From: a virus | Strand: one strand, 5' to 3' | IMG/VR virus record: IMGVR_UViG_3300010352_000628 | Location: 688 to 64,687 of that record | DNA: 64,000 nucleotides | Shown here: positions 620 to 58,409 of the stretch, piece after piece | Position numbering within the stretch: position 1 is the first letter of the stretch | How the letters are laid out: every line of letters begins with the position of its first letter | Translations under genes and position numbers: made by a program | The notes under the pieces: model-generated | Databases searched by the model: none | Seen by the model: the letters and a program-made list of their open reading frames with translations, nothing else | What the model was told of the DNA's origin: nothing

Positions 620-975
620 CGCGCGCGGCGTTCTTCTCGGCGCTTTCCGAGGCCGCCTACGATCTCGACCAGACACACGGCCAGGTGCTTCTGGCGCTGA
701 ACGTGGCAGAAACGAGCTTGGCTGTCCGCGATGAGCGGATCATTTCGGAAGATGCCGAGATGATGCTGATTGAGTTGGTCGGACGAGTTCGTCTGGCCAG
801 CGACCAAGCACAGCGGCTCGCGCGGGAACTGAAAATCGATCCGGCATACGGACATGTTGGTGGGTCGATCGTCGAACAGATTCGCGAGAATTTTCGGGCC
901 ATCCGGAATCAGCCGACGGCTCTGGATCTGACAGGTCTGCCGGCGGATCAGCAGCGACCGACGGAGGGCGTGTGA
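616..975 (+). CDS. hypothetical protein
   Basis: ATGA overlap with the upstream gene; 3' part of ORF 178..975. Confidence 0.6.
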   Translation: MTRAAFFSALSEAAYDLDQTHGQVLLALNVAETSLAVRDERIISEDAEMMLIELVGRVRLASDQAQRLARELKIDPAYGHVGGSIVEQIRENFRAIRNQPTALDLTGLPADQQRPTEGV

Positions 976-1054
976 AGAACTTTCTCCAGTGGCTTCTCGC
1001 CGCCGCAATTGCTCTGATTGTGGTCCATGTGCTTGAGCAGTGGGGGCTACTACT

Positions 1055-1390
1055 ATGACATTCACAGCATCCTGGCCGGTTTTGGTTCAGATCCAAGAGG
1101 CGACCCGCGAGCGGCCCGTCACCATCGCCACGATCCAGGCAGCGACGGGACTCTCGCCGCGGGCGATCAAGGCCGTTGTGGAACGGATGCGGCGCGAAGG
1201 CATAGCCATTGGAGCCAGCCGGGGGAAAGTGGCCGGGTACTACTGCGTCCGGTCGGTGGCTGATGCCGAGGCAGCCATCGCGCCGCTTGTTCGACAGTTG
1301 AGCGAGATGGCGAAGACAGTGCGGGCGATGGTGCCGGAGAGCCGGTATCGGGAGTTGGTCGGGCAGGCGGTGTTGGAGGTTGAGAAGTGA
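1055..1390 (+). CDS. winged-HTH DNA-binding protein
   Basis: TIATIQAATGLSPRAIKAVVERMRREGIAIGAS...GYY pattern typical of phage wHTH proteins. Confidence 0.65.
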   Translation: MTFTASWPVLVQIQEATRERPVTIATIQAATGLSPRAIKAVVERMRREGIAIGASRGKVAGYYCVRSVADAEAAIAPLVRQLSEMAKTVRAMVPESRYRELVGQAVLEVEK

Positions 1391-1394
1391 ACTT

Positions 1395-1545
1395 GGCAGG
1401 CGGGGTTAGGCTAGGCGCGGCATGGACGGGCTCGGCAGGTTTGGCAAGGCAAGGTGCGGATGGGAGAGGCCCGACGAGGCAGGATTGGCAGGACTCGGAG
1501 AGTCGGGTTTCGGTGCGGCATGGCATAGCAGGCGAGACGGGACGC
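1395..1545 (+). repeat. pentameric GGY-NN array 1 (candidate guide-RNA array)
   Basis: GGCA|GGCGG GGTTA GGCTA GGCGC GGCAT GGACG GGCTC|GGCA|GGTTT GGCAA GGCAA GGTGC GGATG GGAGA GGCCC GACGA|GGCA...; intergenic, directly upstream of the RAMP-like gene. Confidence 0.85.
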
Positions 1546-1585
1546 CATGTTCCCGATGCGGTAAACACACACACCAAGGAACAGT

Positions 1586-2227
1586 ATGACTAACACAAAC
1601 ACAAAGACGGTGGCGATCAAGCCGCCAAACTTCGGAACGGCGGTTTTCGGAATCAGGGGCACGGCCCCGCTGGTGATCCACCGATTTTCTGCCAAGACGA
1701 AAGAGCAGATGAAACAGAAGATGGAGGAAGGCAAGTCCGCATCCTCCAAGCGGGTCCGGGAGCCGAAGTCCACGGACGACACTTTCATGGAGGCCCGCTA
1801 CATCGCTAAGGACGGATGGGACGGCTTCAACGCGGCCTCCGTGCGTAACGCGCTCATCTCCGCTTGCCGACTGGTGGGCTTCAAGATGACGCTGGCGAAG
1901 ATGAGCCTCTTTGTCGAGGCCGATGGTTGGGACGCCAAAGAGCCGCAAGTTCCGTTGATCCGCATCCTCGGCAAGCCGACCAAGCAGGAGGACATGGCCC
2001 GCGTCGAAACTGGCCAGCCCTACGTCACCGTCCGGGCGGCCTATTTCGACTGGAAGGCGAAGGTCAAAATCAAGTGGGATCAAGACCAGTTCAGCCTCGC
2101 CGATGTCACCAACTTGCTTTCCCGCGTCGGGATGCAGGTGGGGCTGGGCGAGGGACGGCCAGACTCAAAGAACTCAACCGGCATGGGCTGGGGCACGTTC
2201 GAACTTGAGCAATCCAAAGGAGCGTAG
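1586..2227 (+). CDS. stand-alone RAMP/Cas7-like protein (candidate VIPR-type RNA-guided effector)
   Basis: AAGGA RBS; N-terminal strand IRGTAPLVIH; ASVRNALISA helix; C-terminal glycine-rich loop GMQVGLGEGRP...GMGWGTF as in RAMP proteins; flanked by pentamer arrays. Confidence 0.75.
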   Translation: MTNTNTKTVAIKPPNFGTAVFGIRGTAPLVIHRFSAKTKEQMKQKMEEGKSASSKRVREPKSTDDTFMEARYIAKDGWDGFNAASVRNALISACRLVGFKMTLAKMSLFVEADGWDAKEPQVPLIRILGKPTKQEDMARVETGQPYVTVRAAYFDWKAKVKIKWDQDQFSLADVTNLLSRVGMQVGLGEGRPDSKNSTGMGWGTFELEQSKGA

Positions 2228-2229
2228 TC

Positions 2230-2679
2230 ATGACCGATCCGGCAATCATTGCAGAGCTGAAGCGGCTGGCAGATGACAACGGCGGCGTGCTGACGGCTTC
2301 AACCATTGTTGTGGCGGCGCGTGATGAAGAGTCTATACTCCATTCCCAGTTTGAATGGGATGACAGCGCGGCTGCTGAACAGTACAGAATGTGGCAGGCG
2401 CGTCGTTTACTGAACGTCGTGGTTGAGTACATCGGCCCAAAGGACGGGCAGAGACGGACGCGAGTGTTCGTGAGCCTGACGCCGGATCGGACCGGGAAGG
2501 ATGGGGGGTACCGCCAGATCACGGCGGTACTCTCCGACCGAGAGCACCGCCAGCAGTTGCTCGACGATGCTCTCGAAGAGATGGAGCGGTTCCAGAGGAA
2601 ATACGAGGAGTTACAGGAACTCGTAGAGGTCATCAGTGCCATGCGTAAGGTCTGCAAGGCTCGCGTGGCGGCTGACTGA
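2230..2679 (+). CDS. conserved phage protein, companion of the RAMP-like gene
   Basis: starts 2 nt after the RAMP-like stop; motif LTASTIVVAAR..SILHSQFEWDD.AAAEQYR..QARRL; enclosed by the two arrays. Confidence 0.75.
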   Translation: MTDPAIIAELKRLADDNGGVLTASTIVVAARDEESILHSQFEWDDSAAAEQYRMWQARRLLNVVVEYIGPKDGQRRTRVFVSLTPDRTGKDGGYRQITAVLSDREHRQQLLDDALEEMERFQRKYEELQELVEVISAMRKVCKARVAAD

Positions 2680-2681
2680 TC

Positions 2682-2875
2682 GGCTTGGCGTGGATGAGCA
2701 GGCATGGCGGGAACTGGCTTGCCGATGCAGGGCACGGCCGGGCTTGGCGTGGCGCGGCAGGCAAGACGGGTCGAGGAAAGGCGAGGCAAGGCATGCTAGA
2801 GCAGGCGAGGCGTGGAGAGATTGGGAGAGTTGAGACATGGATGGACATGGCGCGGAACTGATGGGGCAGGCGGTG
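2682..2875 (+). repeat. pentameric GGY-NN array 2 (candidate guide-RNA array)
   Basis: AGCA|GGCAT GGCGG GAACT GGCTT GCCGA TGCAG GGCAC GGCCG GGCTT GGCGT GGCGC|GGCA|GGCAA GACGG GTCGA GGAAA GGCGA GGCAA GGCAT GCTAG|AGCA|GGCGA GGCGT GGAGA... Confidence 0.85.
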
Positions 2876-2895
2876 TTGGGTGACGAAAGGACGAC

Positions 2896-3621
2896 ATGAG
2901 CAATGAACTGACGGTCGCGCCCCAGACGGGCGTGGCGGAGACGCAAGCGCCGGAGCAGAACATCCTCGCCGTGATCGCACGGGCGGCGGCGGACCCCAAC
3001 GTGGACACGGGCAAGATGCGAGAACTCCTGGACATGCAGGAGCGCTTCATGCGGACGCGGGCGGAGATGGAGTTCAACGCCGCGATGGCCCGCATCCAGC
3101 CGAAGATGCCGCGAGTGAATAAGCACGGGCAAATCGTCGTACATAACGAGATCCGGTCGAAGTTCGCCCGCTACGAGGATCTGGACGCGGCAATCAGGCC
3201 ACTGCTGGAGGAGGAAGGGTTTGCGCAGGACTTCGACTCCGAGGATCTTGGCGCAAAGATGAAGGTTGTCCTCTGTGTGTCCCACCGTATGGGCCACAAG
3301 GAGCGGCGGCAAATCACGCTGCCCTACGATGCCAGCGGGGCGAAGTCGGGGACGCAGGGGACTGGCAGCACCTACACGTTCGGCAAGCGGTACTTGGTCC
3401 AGAACTTCTGGAACATCATCACGACGGATGACCCACTCGATGACGACGGGCAGGGAGGCTGCATCAGCCTCGACCAGCAAATCGTCATCAACGACTTGCT
3501 CAAAGAGGTGAAGGCGGACACGACCGGCTTCCTCAAGTTCATGGGGGCGTCGTCGGTGGACGCCATCCCGGTTGCACAGTACCAGAAGGCAATCAACGCA
3601 CTGGAGAGGAAGCGGCGGTGA
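2896..3621 (+). CDS. erf: ERF-family single-strand annealing recombinase
   Basis: SKFARYEDLDAAIRPLL, QGTGSTYTFGKRY and DDDG motifs; adjacent exonuclease. Confidence 0.85.
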   Translation: MSNELTVAPQTGVAETQAPEQNILAVIARAAADPNVDTGKMRELLDMQERFMRTRAEMEFNAAMARIQPKMPRVNKHGQIVVHNEIRSKFARYEDLDAAIRPLLEEEGFAQDFDSEDLGAKMKVVLCVSHRMGHKERRQITLPYDASGAKSGTQGTGSTYTFGKRYLVQNFWNIITTDDPLDDDGQGGCISLDQQIVINDLLKEVKADTTGFLKFMGASSVDAIPVAQYQKAINALERKRR

Positions 3622-4280
3622 TTGTCTACGACACCCTCGAGCAGGGGACGCCCGAATGGTGCGAGGTGCGCAGGGGCATCCCGACAGCCAGCAACTTCGA
3701 CAAGATCCTGACGCCGGGGGGCAAGCCATCAGCACAGGCGAAGCCGTACATGCGGCATCTGATCGCGGAGTTGATCATCGGCAGGCCGATCCAGCAAGTG
3801 AAGACGAGTTGGATGCAGCGCGGCAACGAGATGGAAGGCGAGGCGATGTCCTTTTACGAGTTCGACCAAGAGGTCACTATCAAGCGCGTCGGGTTTATTG
3901 AGAACGATCTGAGGACGTGGGGCTGTTCCCCGGACGCGCTGGTAGGTAACGACGGAATGGCTGAATTCAAGTGCCCAGCCCCGGATACGCACATCGGCTA
4001 CATGTTGTGGTCCGATGTGGCGACTGACTACCGGGTCCAACTCCAAGGGCAACTGTTTGTCGCCGAGCGCGACTGGGTAGATATCTGCTCTTACCACCCG
4101 GAGTTGCCGCCAGTGATTGTGAGGGTCCAGCGGGACGAGCCGTACATCACACTGCTCGCCGCCGCGCTGGAACAGTTCGTGGAGGATATGTCGATCGAGC
4201 GGCAACGCCTCATCGACTTGGGATTCACAATTCATGAGCGGACGCCCGGCGAGCCGCTTGCGGTCAAAGGAGCAGCATGA
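3618..4280 (+). CDS. YqaJ/lambda-exonuclease family protein
   Basis: QGTPEW...R.G..TAS, MQRGNEME, GCSPDALV...EFKCP, Y.VQLQGQL. Confidence 0.92.
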   Translation: MIVYDTLEQGTPEWCEVRRGIPTASNFDKILTPGGKPSAQAKPYMRHLIAELIIGRPIQQVKTSWMQRGNEMEGEAMSFYEFDQEVTIKRVGFIENDLRTWGCSPDALVGNDGMAEFKCPAPDTHIGYMLWSDVATDYRVQLQGQLFVAERDWVDICSYHPELPPVIVRVQRDEPYITLLAAALEQFVEDMSIERQRLIDLGFTIHERTPGEPLAVKGAA

Positions 4281-11902: not shown

Positions 11903-12691
11903 ATGAAGTCAGACGGCCCCCTCCCTTGGCTCCGGCTCTACGTCGAGATCCTTGATGACTCAAAAGTGCAGTTACTACCTGACAAATTGTTCAAGTTTTG
12001 GATCAACTGCCTTTGCATCGCTCGGAAGTACGATGGTTGGCTACCAGATCCGGGGTCAATCGCATTCATTCTAAGGCTCAAAAAAAAGGTAGTAGTATCG
12101 CAACTCGCCGGGCTTGCTAATGCTGGCCTACTAGACTCAGAAGAAAAGGGTTACGCCCCTCACTCCTGGGCTCGGCGACAGTACAAATCCGACAATTCCA
12201 CAGAGCGCGTGAATCGTTTCAGGGACGCGAGGAGAAACGTTACATGCAACGTTGCACGAAACGTTGGGTGTAACGGTGATGAAACGGCCCTCAGAATACA
12301 GAGTACAGAAGCAGAAGAAACACCCCCCTCCCCCTCACGGGGATCGGGTGGCGGTGGGGCGCTTTTCCGCAAGAAACAGGACGAGTGGTTTGATCGGTTC
12401 TATTTGGCTTACTGGAGGAAAGTTGGCAAGGACGCAGCCCTCGCTAAGTTTCGTCTGAAAATTAGGGATGAGGCGACATTTAATTCCGTCATGGCGGCAG
12501 TTAAGAAGCAGACTCCAGAAATGATGGTCCAGATGGGAGTTGATAAAAAAAAGGTCCCTCACCCCGCCACTTGGATAAACCAGGGAAGGTGGAAGGATGA
12601 GGACGACCAAGAGGCGGCAGCCTCTTCCGGCCCCGCCTACCGCCCAGCGGACGGCTACCTCGAAGACCTGTTCAGGAACCCCAATGAGTGA
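11903..12691 (+). CDS. phage replication initiator / replisome organizer
   Basis: WLRLYVEILDDSKVQLL N-terminus; FYLAYWRKVGK..A...PHPATWINQGRW C-terminus; directly upstream of dnaB. Confidence 0.85.
   Translation: MKSDGPLPWLRLYVEILDDSKVQLLPDKLFKFWINCLCIARKYDGWLPDPGSIAFILRLKKKVVVSQLAGLANAGLLDSEEKGYAPHSWARRQYKSDNSTERVNRFRDARRNVTCNVARNVGCNGDETALRIQSTEAEETPPSPSRGSGGGGALFRKKQDEWFDRFYLAYWRKVGKDAALAKFRLKIRDEATFNSVMAAVKKQTPEMMVQMGVDKKKVPHPATWINQGRWKDEDDQEAAASSGPAYRPADGYLEDLFRNPNE
12234..12287 (+). repeat. iteron-like ~12-bp repeats (candidate replication origin)
   Basis: GAAACGTTACAT GCAACGTTGCAC GAAACGTTGGGT GTAACGGTGAT GAAACGG inside the initiator gene. Confidence 0.5.
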
Positions 12692-55988: not shown

Positions 55989-58409
55989 GTGGCCTACGCA
56001 TACAAGCGGAGAATCACGATTGACCACACGAAGTGTGGCGCTGGCAACAGCACTGATTATCCGCTTTGTTTTGCGGGCACGTACACCTGGCTGAAGACCT
56101 CCGCGAACGGCGGGGATCTTGCGAACGCCAGCGGCTACGATCTCAACTTCTACAGCGACGAGGCGCTGACCACGCCGCTCAAGTACGAGCGGGAACTACA
56201 CACGCTCACCACGGGCGAGGTAGTGTTCTGGGTCAAGATCCCGACTCTATCGAGTTCGACCGATACTGTTATCTACCTCGGCTACGGCGACTCCGGGGTA
56301 ACGACCGACCAGTCCGACAAAACGAACGTCTGGAAGTCCGGTTACAAGGGCGTTTACCACCTTGGGGAAGCGCGCTCCACTAGCGCAGGAGCCTACAAGG
56401 ACTCCACTTCCAACGCCAACAATGGCACGCTGACCGATGCGGACAGCGACTGCGTTTCGGCGGCGGTCAAACTTGGAAACGGTATGGATTTTGGCGGCGA
56501 CGGAGCCGATCGCATCGCCGTCGCCGACGCTGCATCGCTCGATCTCGCTAGTGATTTTACGATCACTGGGTGGGTCCGCACCAATTCAACGCCAGGGTCA
56601 GGGACATTCTACGGAGTTCTGGGCAAGGGAACCGGCTCAATTCCACACAACTATATTGTGGTGGTGGACAACGGCTACGTGTCCACCGGCCTGGGGCTGG
56701 CCGCCGCCGTCTACAACTCTGGCGCGTCGGTGGTGACGGCAAAGGTCACCATTTCCGTCAACACGCTCTACTTTTTTACAGTGCAGTGGGTGGCGGCGAC
56801 TGGCGTCATATCCATTGCCATCAACAATGGAACGCCGACCGCATCGTCCGCGTCGGGGTACACGGCTAATTCCAACTCCGCGGCACTGGTTTTGGGCAAC
56901 TGGTCTGATACAGACGGATCGTATGCTCTCGACGGTTTGCTTGACGAAGTGCGCATCCATTCCGGGGCGCTTGATGCCAACTGGATCACCAGCCAGTACA
57001 ACAACGAGAACTCGCCGTCCACGTTCTATGGCGAACAGCTTATCAGTGATGCGCCTACCGCCATCACAGCCTCAGACACACTGACCGTTTCGCTTTCAGA
57101 AGCCCAAGTTTCTCTCGGGGCGCTCGCGCGCACGGACACACTGACGGTTTCGGTATCGGAGGCCCAAGCGTCCGAGGGTGCATTGGCCCGCACGGACTCG
57201 CTCTCCGTTTCCATCGCAGAGTCGCAGCAATCCCTTGGAACGTTGGCGGCGTCAGATTCCGCGTCCGTCTCCATTGCGGATGCCTCCGCTGTTGGGGTCA
57301 TCGTAGAAGCCAGCGACACCGTGGCTGTCAGCCTGGATGAGGCGGTTACCAGCCAAGGGCTAATAGCCGTCTCCGATATCCTCGCCGTGGCGCTCAGTGA
57401 AGCGCAGGAGTCACTGGGGACGCTTGCGGTCGCAGATGCCGTCACCGTGGCCCTGGCTGAGTCCCAAGCGTCATTCGGCGAGTTGGCAGGCAGCGATACC
57501 CTGGCTCTGTCAGTTGACGACGCAGCGGCTATCCTGGCCGCGCTGTCCGCCGCCGATTCGGTCGCGGTGAGTATCACGGAAGGGCAGGAGTCTTTCAGTG
57601 AACTCAGTTCGACGGATAGTCTGACGGCCTCCATCGTCGAAGCGCAAGAGTCGTTGTGCGCGGTCAGCCCGAGCGATTCGGTCGCCGTGTCGGTAGGCGA
57701 TGCGGCTGCGCTTGAAGCCGCGCTTGCGGCGAGCGACACTCTCACAACGTCAATCAGCGAATCGTCGGTACTGGAGTTCCCCGGCGCTGCCATCGAGAAG
57801 ACGGGTTCGGACGATCTCACCGTCTCGGTCGTGGAATCAGCCGGAATTATGGTGGCTATCACCGCATCGGATACTCTCTCCGTCGCGTGCGCAGAGGCGG
57901 TAGCTATCCACTGCGAGTTGACTTCCACGGACGCGCTGGCCGTCAGTTTCGCGGAGTCTCAGGTTTCTTTCGGCACGCTCGAAGTTGGGGACGCAGCGGT
58001 CGTCTCCCTAAGCGAAAGCCAATCTTCTGAGTTGGCAATGGGGACTTCCGACGCGCTCACGCTGGCCTTCGCGGAGAGCGCCCTACTCGGCCTCAACTTG
58101 GTAGCTAGCGACACGCTGACCGTGGCCATCTCCGGGACCAGCGACGTGAGCGAAAGTTCCGTTTCGCACTATGCCGTGGCCGTGCTCGCCGTAACCGTCC
58201 CGCCCACCGCCGTTCTCTACGGGGCGTCGTCTCTCGCAACCGTCATGCAGACGGTGAACCAACCGTCCTCTGTATTGACGGCGACCCCAACTTTAGCGGC
58301 TGTCATGCAGGCAGCGGCTGGCCCGTTCGCTGTTCTGGCGGCAGCCACGCGATTAGACGCTGTTTTGCAGGTAGTGGATCAACCGTCCGCTCCGCTCACG
58401 ACCCAATAG
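55989..58409 (+). CDS. DUF2341-like + LamG-like protein with a 20-aa repeat stalk
   Basis: Y.YKR.ITI...DL.F...WVKIP...IYL.YG; GVYHL; DG.LDEVRI...WI...YNN; SDTLTVS..E repeats. Confidence 0.75.
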   Translation: MAYAYKRRITIDHTKCGAGNSTDYPLCFAGTYTWLKTSANGGDLANASGYDLNFYSDEALTTPLKYERELHTLTTGEVVFWVKIPTLSSSTDTVIYLGYGDSGVTTDQSDKTNVWKSGYKGVYHLGEARSTSAGAYKDSTSNANNGTLTDADSDCVSAAVKLGNGMDFGGDGADRIAVADAASLDLASDFTITGWVRTNSTPGSGTFYGVLGKGTGSIPHNYIVVVDNGYVSTGLGLAAAVYNSGASVVTAKVTISVNTLYFFTVQWVAATGVISIAINNGTPTASSASGYTANSNSAALVLGNWSDTDGSYALDGLLDEVRIHSGALDANWITSQYNNENSPSTFYGEQLISDAPTAITASDTLTVSLSEAQVSLGALARTDTLTVSVSEAQASEGALARTDSLSVSIAESQQSLGTLAASDSASVSIADASAVGVIVEASDTVAVSLDEAVTSQGLIAVSDILAVALSEAQESLGTLAVADAVTVALAESQASFGELAGSDTLALSVDDAAAILAALSAADSVAVSITEGQESFSELSSTDSLTASIVEAQESLCAVSPSDSVAVSVGDAAALEAALAASDTLTTSISESSVLEFPGAAIEKTGSDDLTVSVVESAGIMVAITASDTLSVACAEAVAIHCELTSTDALAVSFAESQVSFGTLEVGDAAVVSLSESQSSELAMGTSDALTLAFAESALLGLNLVASDTLTVAISGTSDVSESSVSHYAVAVLAVTVPPTAVLYGASSLATVMQTVNQPSSVLTATPTLAAVMQAAAGPFAVLAAATRLDAVLQVVDQPSAPLTTQ

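What the first reader, a model, noticed from the sequence alone, without database searches (positions are those of the whole stretch)
1395..2870. Arrays are punctuated by (G/A)GCAGG delimiters obeying a 4+5n length rule, defining individual guide units
Seen in sequence: delimiters start at 1395, 1434, 1478, 1487, 1527 and at 2697, 2756, 2800, 2865. Spacings of 39, 44, 9, 59 and 44 nt equal 4+5n exactly (n = 7, 8, 1, 11, 8). Two segments (40 and 65 nt) are one base off. NN read-outs: A1 GG,TA,TA,GC,AT,CG,TC; A2 TT,AA,AA,GC,TG,GA,CC,GA; B2 AT,GG,CT,TT,GA,AG,AC,CG,TT,GT,GC; B3 AA,GG,GA,AA,GA,AA,AT,AG; B4 GA,GT,GA,TG,GA,GA,AT,TG,AT,GC,AC. The NN strings differ between segments, which simple microsatellite slippage would not produce. 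Inference: the 4-nt unit is a processing or boundary signal, giving about 6 guides that each carry 14-22 informative bases.
Basis: partly seen in the sequence, partly recalled or inferred. Interest (0 to 1): 0.88.

Follow-up and report, generated by a model that had tools for sequence, protein, structure and literature searches.

The report
Phage VIPR guide arrays, staggered type
The two G-rich repeat arrays are guide-RNA arrays of a phage VIPR system, a CRISPR-like DNA-silencing system described in 2026, and the GGCAGG marks are the one-base-short junctions between guides.

Summary
GG recurs every 5 nt far beyond chance.

The arrays flank a 213-aa gene (1586-2227). Its only significant PDB sequence match is the SUSP1 Vipr protein (E 5.4e-6). 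Its model matches Cas7/Csm3 RAMPs. This is therefore a VIPR system (bioRxiv 10.64898/2026.04.26.720920 and .720927), and this scan has met VIPR arrays before on other genomes.

The delimiter is a 4-nt unit, GGCA, followed at once by GG, which moves the register back by one. Across 36 related loci and the window, 239 of 253 register changes are this step, and 152 of 215 distinct contexts read GGCAGG. This matches the preprint's "staggered vrRNA arrays" (fig. S18 legend).

In relative L001, a junction-bounded tract matches terminase genes of other phages at 16 of 16 bases under the skip-one rule.

Not shown:
- RNA ends.
- Any target for the window's own guides.

The site at 2865 is a relic of the neighbouring gene's 3' end, not a delimiter.

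Verdict: a new member of a known kind.

The parts
1055..1390 (+). HTH / winged-helix regulator gene just upstream. It is not part of the system but marks the left edge of the inserted cassette. Its last ~40 nt (from about 1348) came in with the cassette.
   Evidence: Pfam HTH_11 and Rrf2, both below their cut-offs. phrog_2113. Three non-self homologs. Contig join at 1347.
1361..1376 (+). Left copy of a 16-nt direct repeat that brackets the cassette. It contains a GGCAGG at 1362 that lies in coding sequence.
1395..1398 (+). GGCA unit directly before the first guide (array A start).
   Evidence: GGCA precedes the first GG in 14 of 44 related arrays.
1399..1437 (+). Guide A1: 8 units, all with GG. 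There are seven NN (GG TA TA GC AT CG TC), then the terminal GGCA at 1434-1437.
1438..1481 (+). Guide A2: 9 units, 8 with GG. There are eight NN (TT AA AA GC TG GA CC GA), then the terminal GGCA at 1478-1481.
1482..1490 (+). Two-unit tract GGATT GGCA. The same GGATT-GGCA ending occurs in L008 and L036.
1491..1545 (+). Irregular, degenerate tract with a 5-bp hairpin at about 1492-1506 and an AGCAGG at 1527. It is probably a decayed guide or the leader of vipr.
   Evidence: The hairpin was read from the sequence and not folded.
1586..2227 (+). vipr: 213-aa RAMP protein that would coat the guides.
   Evidence: Profile against PDB sequences: only significant hit is 36pp_D, SUSP1 Vipr, E 5.4e-6. 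AF2 model pLDDT 80. Foldseek top rows are all Csm3/Cmr4/Cas7. VIA-align top 27 rows are all CRISPR RAMPs, Z up to 10.0.
2230..2679 (+). vap-like accessory gene, 149 aa, function unknown.
   Evidence: A homolog lies directly downstream of vipr in 33 of 42 related loci. phrog_15946. AF2 pLDDT 88.8. Only weak winged-helix-like fold rows, none at E <= 0.001.
2682..2700 (+). Short tract B0: three units, then AGCA.
2701..2759 (+). Guide B1: 12 units, 9 with GG. There are eleven NN, then the terminal GGCA at 2756-2759.
2760..2803 (+). Guide B2: 9 units, 5 with GG. There are eight NN, then the terminal AGCA at 2800-2803.
2804..2853 (+). Guide B3: 10 units, 6 with GG, degenerate. It ends where the cassette ends.
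2854..2899 (+). Relic of the original 3' end of the HTH gene. It reads ...ELMGQAVLGDERTT*, and the stop overlaps the erf start. It holds the right copy of the direct repeat (2864-2879) and the GGCAGG at 2865, which is therefore not a delimiter.
   Evidence: A contig of run X4 joins 1347 to 2854 in frame.

Best explanation
Identity. The stretch 1395-2853 is a VIPR cassette (Viral Interference Programmable Repeat) carried by a 64.7-kb phage from activated sludge. It holds a Vipr RAMP gene (1586-2227) and a vap-like gene (2230-2679). Two guide-RNA arrays of GGY-NN pentamers lie on the same strand, one on each side.

Mechanism, taken from the published system and inferred for this locus. The array transcript is coated by Vipr, one protomer per pentamer. 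The GGY bases are buried in the protein. The NN bases are displayed and pair with double-stranded DNA, reading two of every three bases (the skip-one rule, where the skipped base is usually the codon wobble). Binding silences a gene of a competing phage.

The finding itself. Guides are laid head to tail with no tail, hairpin or ribozyme between them. Each guide ends in a 4-nt unit, GGCA, followed directly by the GG of the next guide. The pentamer register therefore slips by -1, giving GGCAGG, and junction-to-junction distances are 4+5n. My reading is that this short unit breaks the Vipr filament and so sets guide length. Trimming by some RNase may follow.

Shown here:
- Vipr kinship.
- Array periodicity.
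- Family-wide conservation of the GGCA junction.
- A junction-bounded, in-frame, skip-one target match in a relative.

Inferred only:
- Transcription.
- Filament break or cleavage at the junction.
- Activity of the window's own guides.
For: Vipr kinship.
- The A2 profile (43 sequences) against PDB sequences has one significant hit, 36pp_D SUSP1 Vipr, E 5.4e-6. The A1 profile gave E 0.0036.
- RNA-contact residues named in 10.64898/2026.04.26.720927 (Results read) align as R138/R150, D177/E189 and R179/R191.
- H17/H32 also aligns, but only in a weak alignment stretch.
- The fold matches Cas7-type RAMPs.

Arrays go with the gene.
- 41 of 42 IMG/VR loci with a homolog have a same-strand period-5 GG array beside it.
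- vap is conserved in 33 of 42 loci. The flanking HTH, erf and exonuclease genes are conserved in 0 of 42.

Junction.
- Arrays were called in 36 loci plus the window. Of 253 register changes, 239 are step 4, 11 step 6, 2 step 7 and 1 step 3, with equal penalties for steps 4 and 6.
- GGCAGG occurs in 152 of 215 distinct contexts and NGCAGG in 184 of 215.
- GGT-type arrays switch to GGCA at tract ends.
- The last unit of an array starts with GGCA in 24 of 42 arrays. About 8 are expected from unit composition.
- 113 of 177 junction spacings are 44-64 nt, with the mode at 54.

Guide function in this clade, shown in relative L001.
- Tract 2061 matches L001's own terminase Walker-A codons at 15 of 16 bases, in frame. 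The four units upstream match at 0 of 8.
- The same 16-base pattern has 30 exact hits in IMG/VR. Twelve lie in terminase homologs, including L077, whose TerL is 85% identical.
- A second L001 guide matches L077 terL at 23 of 26 bases, against a shuffle maximum of 19.

Literature.
- The fig. S18 legend of 10.64898/2026.04.26.720920 describes staggered arrays with 1-nt overlapping vrRNAs.

Window guides.
- They have no self-target above shuffles at skip 1, as the preprint reports for its systems.
Against: No target was found for any window guide.
- B1 (22 bases) has 0 exact hits in viral, metagenome and genome collections.
- A2 (16 bases) has 14 hits, which are 6 independent sites. None lies in DNA of about 60% GC.
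- All five guides are within shuffles against 648 kb of held loci.
- Across relatives, 191 guides showed no skip-1 enrichment against 320 kb. Two further long guides of relatives had 0 hits.

The collection scans take exact matches only, so their sensitivity is low.

Array B is degenerate: GG is present in 9 of 12, 5 of 9 and 6 of 10 units. It may be decaying.

No RNA ends are available. The runs are kept as contigs only.

No sigma-70-like promoter or terminator flanks the arrays.

NN = AG inside tracts, which also spells GGCAGG, is not avoided: 4.7% observed against 5.8% expected. The hexamer alone therefore cannot be the signal.

Sequence similarity to SUSP1 Vipr is weak, and W178 of SUSP1 aligns with G190 here.
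Confidence: 0.82

Rival explanations
1. It is a VIPR locus, but the GGCA junction is only a scar of how guides are added or duplicated (for example by recombination or slippage that drops one base). It is not a signal read by the protein or by an RNase. Guide ends are then set in some other way, or the array acts as one long RNA.
For: - No RNA ends were seen.
- GGCAGG made by in-phase AG units is not avoided inside tracts.
- Short tracts of 2-7 units are common, 99 of 301, which looks untidy for a ruler.
- Tracts within L008 look like diverged duplicates of one another.
Against: - A scar would not keep C at 93% and A at 88% across phages whose Vipr proteins are only 61-77% identical.
- A scar would not make GGT arrays switch to GGCA.
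- A scar would not give a 239:11 excess of -1 over +1 steps.
- The L001 target match stops at the junctions.
Confidence: 0.1
2. The window's arrays are a decaying, no longer functional VIPR remnant. The gene pair may still be intact, but the guides are drifting.
For: - Array B has many units without GG, and 1491-1545 is irregular.
- No target was found.
- A related phage seems to lack the whole cassette.
Against: - A1 and A2 are nearly perfect, with 16 of 17 units carrying GG.
- vipr and vap are full-length. Residues that are invariant across the 38 close homologs of alignment A1 include the aligned RNA-contact residues H32, R150, E189 and R191.
- The preprint notes frequent internal degeneracy of vrRNAs (Methods).
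- The target searches were exact-match only.
Confidence: 0.06
3. It is not a guide array at all. It could be a G-rich leader acting through two-tetrad G-quadruplexes, repeated Shine-Dalgarno-like sites, a sponge for a GGA-binding protein of the CsrA type, or a slippage microsatellite.
For: - The arrays are G-rich (47-48% G), sit between genes of one operon, and lie just upstream of start codons.
- Rfam has no match.
Against: - The arrays travel with the Vipr gene and not with the flanking genes.
- GGY is fixed while NN composition is broad.
- No tract is shared between distinct loci.
- The register slips always go the same way.
- Tracts in L001 decode in frame to another phage's terminase.
Confidence: 0.02

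Closest known systems
VIPR systems with staggered vrRNA arrays (bioRxiv 10.64898/2026.04.26.720920, fig. S18 legend; Results, three Methods sections and figure legends read, figures and supplements not seen)
   Same: - A stand-alone RAMP gene plus one accessory gene in a phage.
- GGY-NN pentamer arrays in the flanking gaps.
- Guides abutting with a 1-nt overlap of registers, so the end of one marks the start of the next.
- No self-targets.
   Different: - The held text does not give the junction sequence. The strings GCAGG, CAGG and GGCAG are absent from it.
- The text says that only the ribozyme and single-guide layouts were confirmed by small-RNA sequencing.
- I could not tell which of the seven types this locus belongs to, because that needs the figures and data files.
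Type II VIPR of Escherichia phage SUSP1 and the Pseudomonas fulva prophage (same preprint, and 10.64898/2026.04.26.720927, Results read; PDB 36pp)
   Same: - The protein family is the same. SUSP1 Vipr is the only significant PDB sequence hit.
- Contact residues R138, D177 and R179 have aligned counterparts.
- The repeat is GGY/NN.
- Targets lie in genes of rival phages with the skipped base at the wobble position. This is shown here only for relative L001.
   Different: - In SUSP1 each vrRNA is a separate RNA of about 100 nt with an invariant 3' tail that folds into a pseudoknot cap. Here there is no tail, only the 4-nt GGCA unit.
- Sequence similarity is low (29 bits).
- SUSP1 W178, which stacks on G2, aligns with G190 here.
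CRISPR class 1 backbone proteins (Cas7, Csm3, Cmr4) with crRNA
   Same: - The RAMP fold is shared: Foldseek E about 4e-4, VIA-align Z up to 10.0.
- One protomer binds per fixed step of the guide.
- Bases are flipped out periodically.
   Different: - There is no repeat-spacer array, no cas operon and no Cas6-type repeat hairpin.
- The step is 5 nt with 2 informative bases, against 6 nt with 5.
- The guide reads a gapped target.

Membership tests
VIPR system | Vipr protein: a small stand-alone RAMP (RRM core, glycine-rich loop, thumb) related to described Vipr proteins | tested here: met
   The profile of 43 family members has one significant PDB sequence hit, SUSP1 Vipr 36pp_D, at E 5.4e-6. The GxGEGRP loop aligns with the SUSP1 G-loop GVGDWRP. 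The model matches Cas7/Csm3/Cmr4.
VIPR system | Tandem GGY-NN (YNNGG) pentamer tracts of at least 4 units in the gaps beside vipr, on the same strand | tested here: met
   A1 has GG in 8 of 8 units and A2 in 8 of 9. Position 3 of regular units in the family is C 60% and T 24%. Arrays lie beside the homolog in 41 of 42 related loci.
VIPR system | One accessory gene (vap) next to vipr in a minimal two-gene locus, mostly in phages | tested here: met
   The 149-aa gene is conserved directly downstream in 33 of 42 loci, and the flanks in 0 of 42. The record is a 64.7-kb virus contig with Erf and YqaJ genes. The vap class was not determined.
VIPR system | vrRNAs are expressed as discrete small RNAs that bind Vipr | not testable with these tools
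   Only assembled contigs of public runs could be laid. Metatranscriptome contigs cover 1502-1652 and 1686-1836 but show neither ends nor transcription.
VIPR system | NN strings match DNA targets under the 1-nt skip rule | tested here: inconclusive
   Window guides: no target was found, and the collection scans were exact-match only. Same clade, relative L001: 16/16 and 23/26 on the terL gene of another phage, in frame.
Staggered vrRNA array (VIPR sub-architecture) | Successive guides abut with registers offset by 1 nt and no tail or ribozyme between them | tested here: met
   In the window, -1 steps occur at 1395/1399, 1434/1438, 1478/1482, 1487/1491, 2697/2701, 2756/2760 and 2800/2804. Across the window and 36 related loci, 239 of 253 register changes are -1. 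Rfam finds no ribozyme.
Type II VIPR (SUSP1 clade) | Each vrRNA carries an invariant 3' tail of about 40 nt with a pseudoknot | tested here: not met
   Tracts follow one another directly, separated only by GGCA. Vipr similarity to SUSP1 is distant.
CRISPR-Cas | Repeat-spacer array with repeats of about 24-40 nt, plus cas genes | tested here: not met
   Neither Rfam nor Tandem Repeats Finder reports such an array. The neighbours are HTH, Erf and YqaJ genes.

The most novel reading that the evidence does not exclude
The 4-nt GGCA unit is a complete guide terminator in itself. By putting the next GG one base too early, it stops one Vipr filament and seeds the next. Guide length would then be written into the array with no tail, ribozyme or Cas6-like nuclease.

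In this clade the guides would be aimed at allelic variants of the phage's own core genes in sibling phages, with the phage's own copy spared by a few mismatches. This pattern is seen for L001, which matches a sibling's terL at 16/16 and 23/26 but its own at 15/16 and 20/26. It is possibly true for window guide A1, which decodes to GYYA[I/M]RS. The neighbouring HTH gene reads GYYCVRS at that site, and its homologs read GYYEIRS and GYYAIKT.
Probability: 0.3. Interest if true: 0.6.

Novelty: new member of a known kind. Interest (0 to 1): 0.35.

Why it matters
VIPR was described only in 2026, and its staggered array layout rests, in the text I could read, on one supplementary figure without RNA data.

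This window and 36 relatives add four things:
- The junction has a fixed sequence, GGCA before GG, kept even where the ordinary unit is GGT.
- Typical guide length is about 10 NN.
- In one relative (L001), a target match filled a single junction-bounded tract and did not continue into the units upstream.
- The whole array-vipr-vap-array block behaves as a cassette that can be present or absent between the same two phage genes.

This gives a simple rule for calling guides in such arrays and a clear bench test for how guide length is set without a processing enzyme.

For this scan the result is mainly a classification.

Tried and rejected
1. Known RNA families. Rfam at gathering thresholds over the whole window gave 0 matches.

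2. Tandem Repeats Finder did not call the arrays as period 5.

3. Self-targets.
- Window guides against the phage's own 64.7-kb genome at skips 0-2 were within shuffles. Skip 3 finds only the arrays themselves.
However, it is one of five 11/14 hits in the genome, so it is chance level on its own.

4. Targets of window guides in collections.
- B1 (22 bases): 0 hits in viral contigs, metagenome contigs and genome contigs.
- A2 (16 bases): 14 hits. Nine are one homologous site in contigs of about 33% GC, and none extends into the next unit.
- I ran no shuffled-pattern scan of a collection, so "chance level" for A2 rests on hit context, not on a control scan.

5. Targets of relatives' guides.
- 191 guides against 320 kb of held DNA showed no enrichment over shuffles at skip 1.
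- 20-base seeds from L033 and L028 gave 0 hits.
- The near-self test on 191 guides showed no general enrichment: 7 had p <= 0.05. The L001 pair was the exception that I followed up.

6. DNA of HTH homologs, to test A1.
- The search for related loci with the protein found none.
- The search for related loci with alignment A4 in metagenomes found none.
- A degenerate motif scan gave 2 hits, of which one is a true homolog (L061, GYYLIDT, 9 of 14).

7. Host and pangenome route.
- Genome contigs gave only 4 loci, all on short MAG contigs of four phyla.

8. Reads.
- All runs are kept as contigs, so RNA starts, ends and strand cannot be seen.
- Parts of the stretch without cover in these runs mean nothing.

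9. vap function.
- The profile against PDB sequences gave nothing significant; the best hit was E 0.079.
- Foldseek gave no row at E <= 0.001. The weak rows are MukE, forkhead and MarR-type winged helices.

10. A sigma-70 promoter and terminator scan of 900-3100 found 0 promoters, and terminator-like sites were at shuffle level.

11. VIPR type (I-VII) was not assigned. It needs the figures and data files. They may hold the junction motif and the type of this clade.

Literature search. The paper search for 'VIPR' plus 'vrRNA' found 6 papers holding both terms, of which 4 were listed. For 720920 I read the outline, the Results, three Methods sections and passages. For 720927 I read the outline and the first of two parts of the Results. 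For 759431 and 760802 I read passages only. None of the strings GCAGG, CAGG or GGCAG occurs in the main text of 720920, and GCAGG does not occur in that of 759431.
Full report
**What is in the sequence.**
The window is nearly all of a 64,687-nt virus record. Public runs place it in activated sludge.

Genes at the left end all lie on the + strand:
- an HTH regulator (1055-1390);
- a 213-aa ORF (1586-2227);
- a 149-aa ORF (2230-2679);
- an Erf annealing protein (2896-3621);
- a YqaJ exonuclease (3618-4280).

Two gaps, 1391-1585 and 2680-2895, are 47-48% G. In both, GG recurs every 5 nt.

**Check of the observation.**
- All nine (G/A)GCAGG sites are at the stated places.
- The spacings are 39, 44, 9, 40 and 59, 44, 65. 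Five of seven equal 4+5n.
- Nine motifs fall in 372 nt, against 0.42 expected from the rest of the window.
- The period-5 signal of the tract blocks was reached by 0, 3 and 2 of 5000 shuffles.
- The two gaps are the strongest period-5 GG regions in the 64 kb.

The 4+5n rule follows from the motif. GGCAGG is two GG placed 4 nt apart, so the rule states that every other GG step between two junctions is exactly 5.

**What it is.**
Earlier notes of this scan on other genomes pointed to VIPR systems. I checked this myself.

The literature says the following.
- Preprint 10.64898/2026.04.26.720920 (Results and Methods sections read) describes phage loci with a stand-alone RAMP protein (Vipr) and one accessory gene (vap).
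- The flanking vrRNAs are made of 9-16 YNNGG repeats.
- The NN bases read double-stranded DNA while skipping every third base.
- Preprint 10.64898/2026.04.26.720927 (first part of the Results read) shows one Vipr protomer per repeat, with the GGY bases buried and the NN bases displayed.

The 213-aa protein belongs to this family.
- It has 6122 relatives in the 90% clusters and 2144 representative clusters.
- A profile of 43 diverse members hits one PDB sequence significantly, SUSP1 Vipr (36pp_D, E 5.4e-6). A profile of 38 close members gave E 0.0036.
- SUSP1 residues R138, D177 and R179 align with R150, E189 and R191. H17 aligns with H32 only in a weak stretch. W178 aligns with G190.
- The AlphaFold model has pLDDT 80.
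- Its Foldseek matches are all Csm3, Cmr4 or Cas7 rows at E about 4e-4.
- By VIA-align, the first 27 rows are all CRISPR RAMPs, with Z up to 10.0.

**The arrays travel with the gene.**
- Of 42 IMG/VR loci with a homolog, 41 have a same-strand period-5 GG array beside it. The exception, L025, ends about 0.8 kb after the gene.
- A vap homolog lies directly downstream in 33 of 42 loci.
- The window's flanking HTH, erf and exonuclease genes are found in 0 of 42.

**The delimiter.**
I segmented the arrays with a dynamic programme that charges the same penalty for a 4-nt and a 6-nt step.
- It called arrays in 36 of the 42 loci and in the window.
- It found 253 register changes: 239 of step 4, 11 of step 6, 2 of step 7 and 1 of step 3.
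- Among 215 distinct junction contexts, 152 read GGCAGG and 184 read NGCAGG. The two bases between the GGs are C in 93% and A in 88%.
- In ordinary units the third base is C 60% and T 24%, and the NN composition is broad.
- Arrays built of GGT units (L031, L036) still end each tract in GGCA.
- Junction-to-junction distances peak at 54 nt, and 113 of 177 lie between 44 and 64 nt. That is about 8-12 NN per guide.
- The last unit of an array starts with GGCA in 24 of 42 arrays, against about 8 expected.
- GGCA precedes the first GG in 14 of 44 arrays. GGCA therefore looks like the 3' end of each guide.
- In-phase AG units, which also spell GGCAGG, are not avoided: 4.7% observed against 5.8% expected. 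The signal is the short 4-nt unit, not the hexamer alone.

This matches the legend of fig. S18 of the first preprint: "staggered vrRNA arrays", with vrRNAs derived from positions overlapping by 1 nt, the end of one marking the start of the next. The main text adds that only the ribozyme and single-guide layouts were confirmed by small-RNA sequencing. The strings GCAGG, CAGG and GGCAG do not occur in the held text. I could not see the figure.

**Do the tracts act as guides?**

For the window I found no target.
- There is no self-target above shuffles.
- B1 has 0 exact hits in three collections.
- A2 has 14 hits that look like chance.
- Nothing stands out in 648 kb of held loci.
- These scans take exact matches only, so this is weak evidence.

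In the relative L001 the answer is clear.
- A tract of eight NN, bounded by two GGCA junctions, matches codons 64-71 (MKGTQAGF) of the phage's own large terminase gene at 15 of 16 bases. This stretch looks like the Walker-A motif, which is my reading and was not tested. The gene is identified by Pfam GpA_ATPase, E 7.7e-15.
- The match is in frame, with the skipped base on the wobble position.
- The four units upstream of the tract match at 0 of 8 bases.
- A scan of IMG/VR with that 16-base pattern gave 30 hits. Twelve lie in terminase homologs, including L077, whose TerL is 85% identical to L001's and matches at 16 of 16.
- A second L001 guide of 13 NN matches L077's terL at 23 of 26 bases. 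It matches L001's own terL at 20 of 26. The shuffle maximum was 19.
- The held parts of the twelve terL-bearing loci contain no vipr or vap. The six of them that I scanned for arrays, L077 among them, show none.

In this clade, therefore, the skip-one rule holds and a junction-bounded tract is one guide. The guides are aimed at a sibling phage's allele, and the phage's own copy carries mismatches.

- The site at 2865 is not a delimiter. Positions 2864-2879 repeat 1361-1376 exactly.
- Positions 2852-2899 encode AELMGQAVLGDERTT with a stop that overlaps the erf start. This resembles the HTH protein's own end, RELVGQAVLEVEK.
- A low-depth contig of run X4 joins 1347 to 2854 with three letters between. 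That join keeps the HTH frame open to that stop.
- A relative thus appears to lack the whole block, and 2854-2899 is the old 3' end of the HTH gene. This explains the 65-nt "one base off" segment.
- The 40-nt segment (1487-1527) is an irregular, degenerate tract.
- I count five substantial guides: A1, A2, B1, B2 and B3.

**How it most likely works.**
Steps shown here:
- kinship of the protein;
- periodic arrays tied to the gene;
- a conserved -1 junction;
- junction-bounded targeting in a relative.

Steps inferred:
- The arrays are transcribed with the early operon. No promoter or terminator signal was found.
- Vipr coats each tract.
- The 4-nt unit interrupts the filament and so defines guide ends, perhaps with trimming by a host RNase.
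- The window's guides silence genes of rival phages.

Guide A1 decodes to GYYA[I/M]RS. The adjacent HTH gene reads GYYCVRS at the matching site, and its three homologs read GYYEIRT, GYYEIRS and GYYAIKT. This is suggestive, but at the nucleotide level it is within chance.

**Verdict.**
The kind is already described, so this is a new member of a known kind. The scan has met VIPR arrays before on other DNA.

Noticed in passing
window 1347-2899: The array-vipr-vap-array block looks like an inserted cassette. A 16-nt direct repeat (1361-1376 = 2864-2879) brackets it. A relic of the HTH gene's 3' end lies at 2852-2899. One low-depth contig of run X4 joins 1347 to 2854 in frame, which suggests a relative without the cassette.
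   Followed up: partly
L001:2061-2104, L001:2241-2305 and L001:2350-4038: A relative's guides match its own large terminase gene at 15/16 and 20/26 bases in frame. By the preprint's 80% NN threshold, the first (94%) would count as a self-target. The sibling phage L077 is matched at 16/16 and 23/26. The phage's own copy differs at the Ala/Gly codon of the MKGTQAGF stretch, which looks like the Walker-A motif.
   Followed up: yes
window 1235-1255: Guide A1 decodes to GYYA[I/M]RS. The HTH gene 150 nt upstream reads GYYCVRS here, and its homologs P0272-P0274 read GYYEIRT, GYYEIRS and GYYAIKT. The nucleotide match is 11/14, one of five such hits in the genome.
   Followed up: partly
window 1482-1492; L008 and L036 arrays: An extended junction, GGATT-GGCA-GG, recurs in the window and in two unrelated relatives. 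It may be a preferred last unit.
   Followed up: no
window 1492-1506: A small hairpin (5-bp stem, GGA loop) lies inside the irregular end of array A, upstream of vipr. It was read by eye and not folded.
   Followed up: no
window 57075-57211 and 12234-12286: Tandem repeats of period 60 (2.3 copies) and of period 12/24 were reported by Tandem Repeats Finder. They are unrelated to the arrays.
   Followed up: no
L008:543-652 and L008:1900-2039: The two arrays of one relative end in near-identical last tracts, and their middle tracts look like diverged duplicates. This hints that guides arise by tract duplication followed by NN change.
   Followed up: no
L064, L065, L071, L073-L075, L081-L085, L091: Twelve of the 30 hits to the L001 guide pattern fall in one unrelated protein family (context ...TVLTLDDIKGTQGGFL...). 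This is probably one chance match copied across a much-sampled phage group.
   Followed up: no
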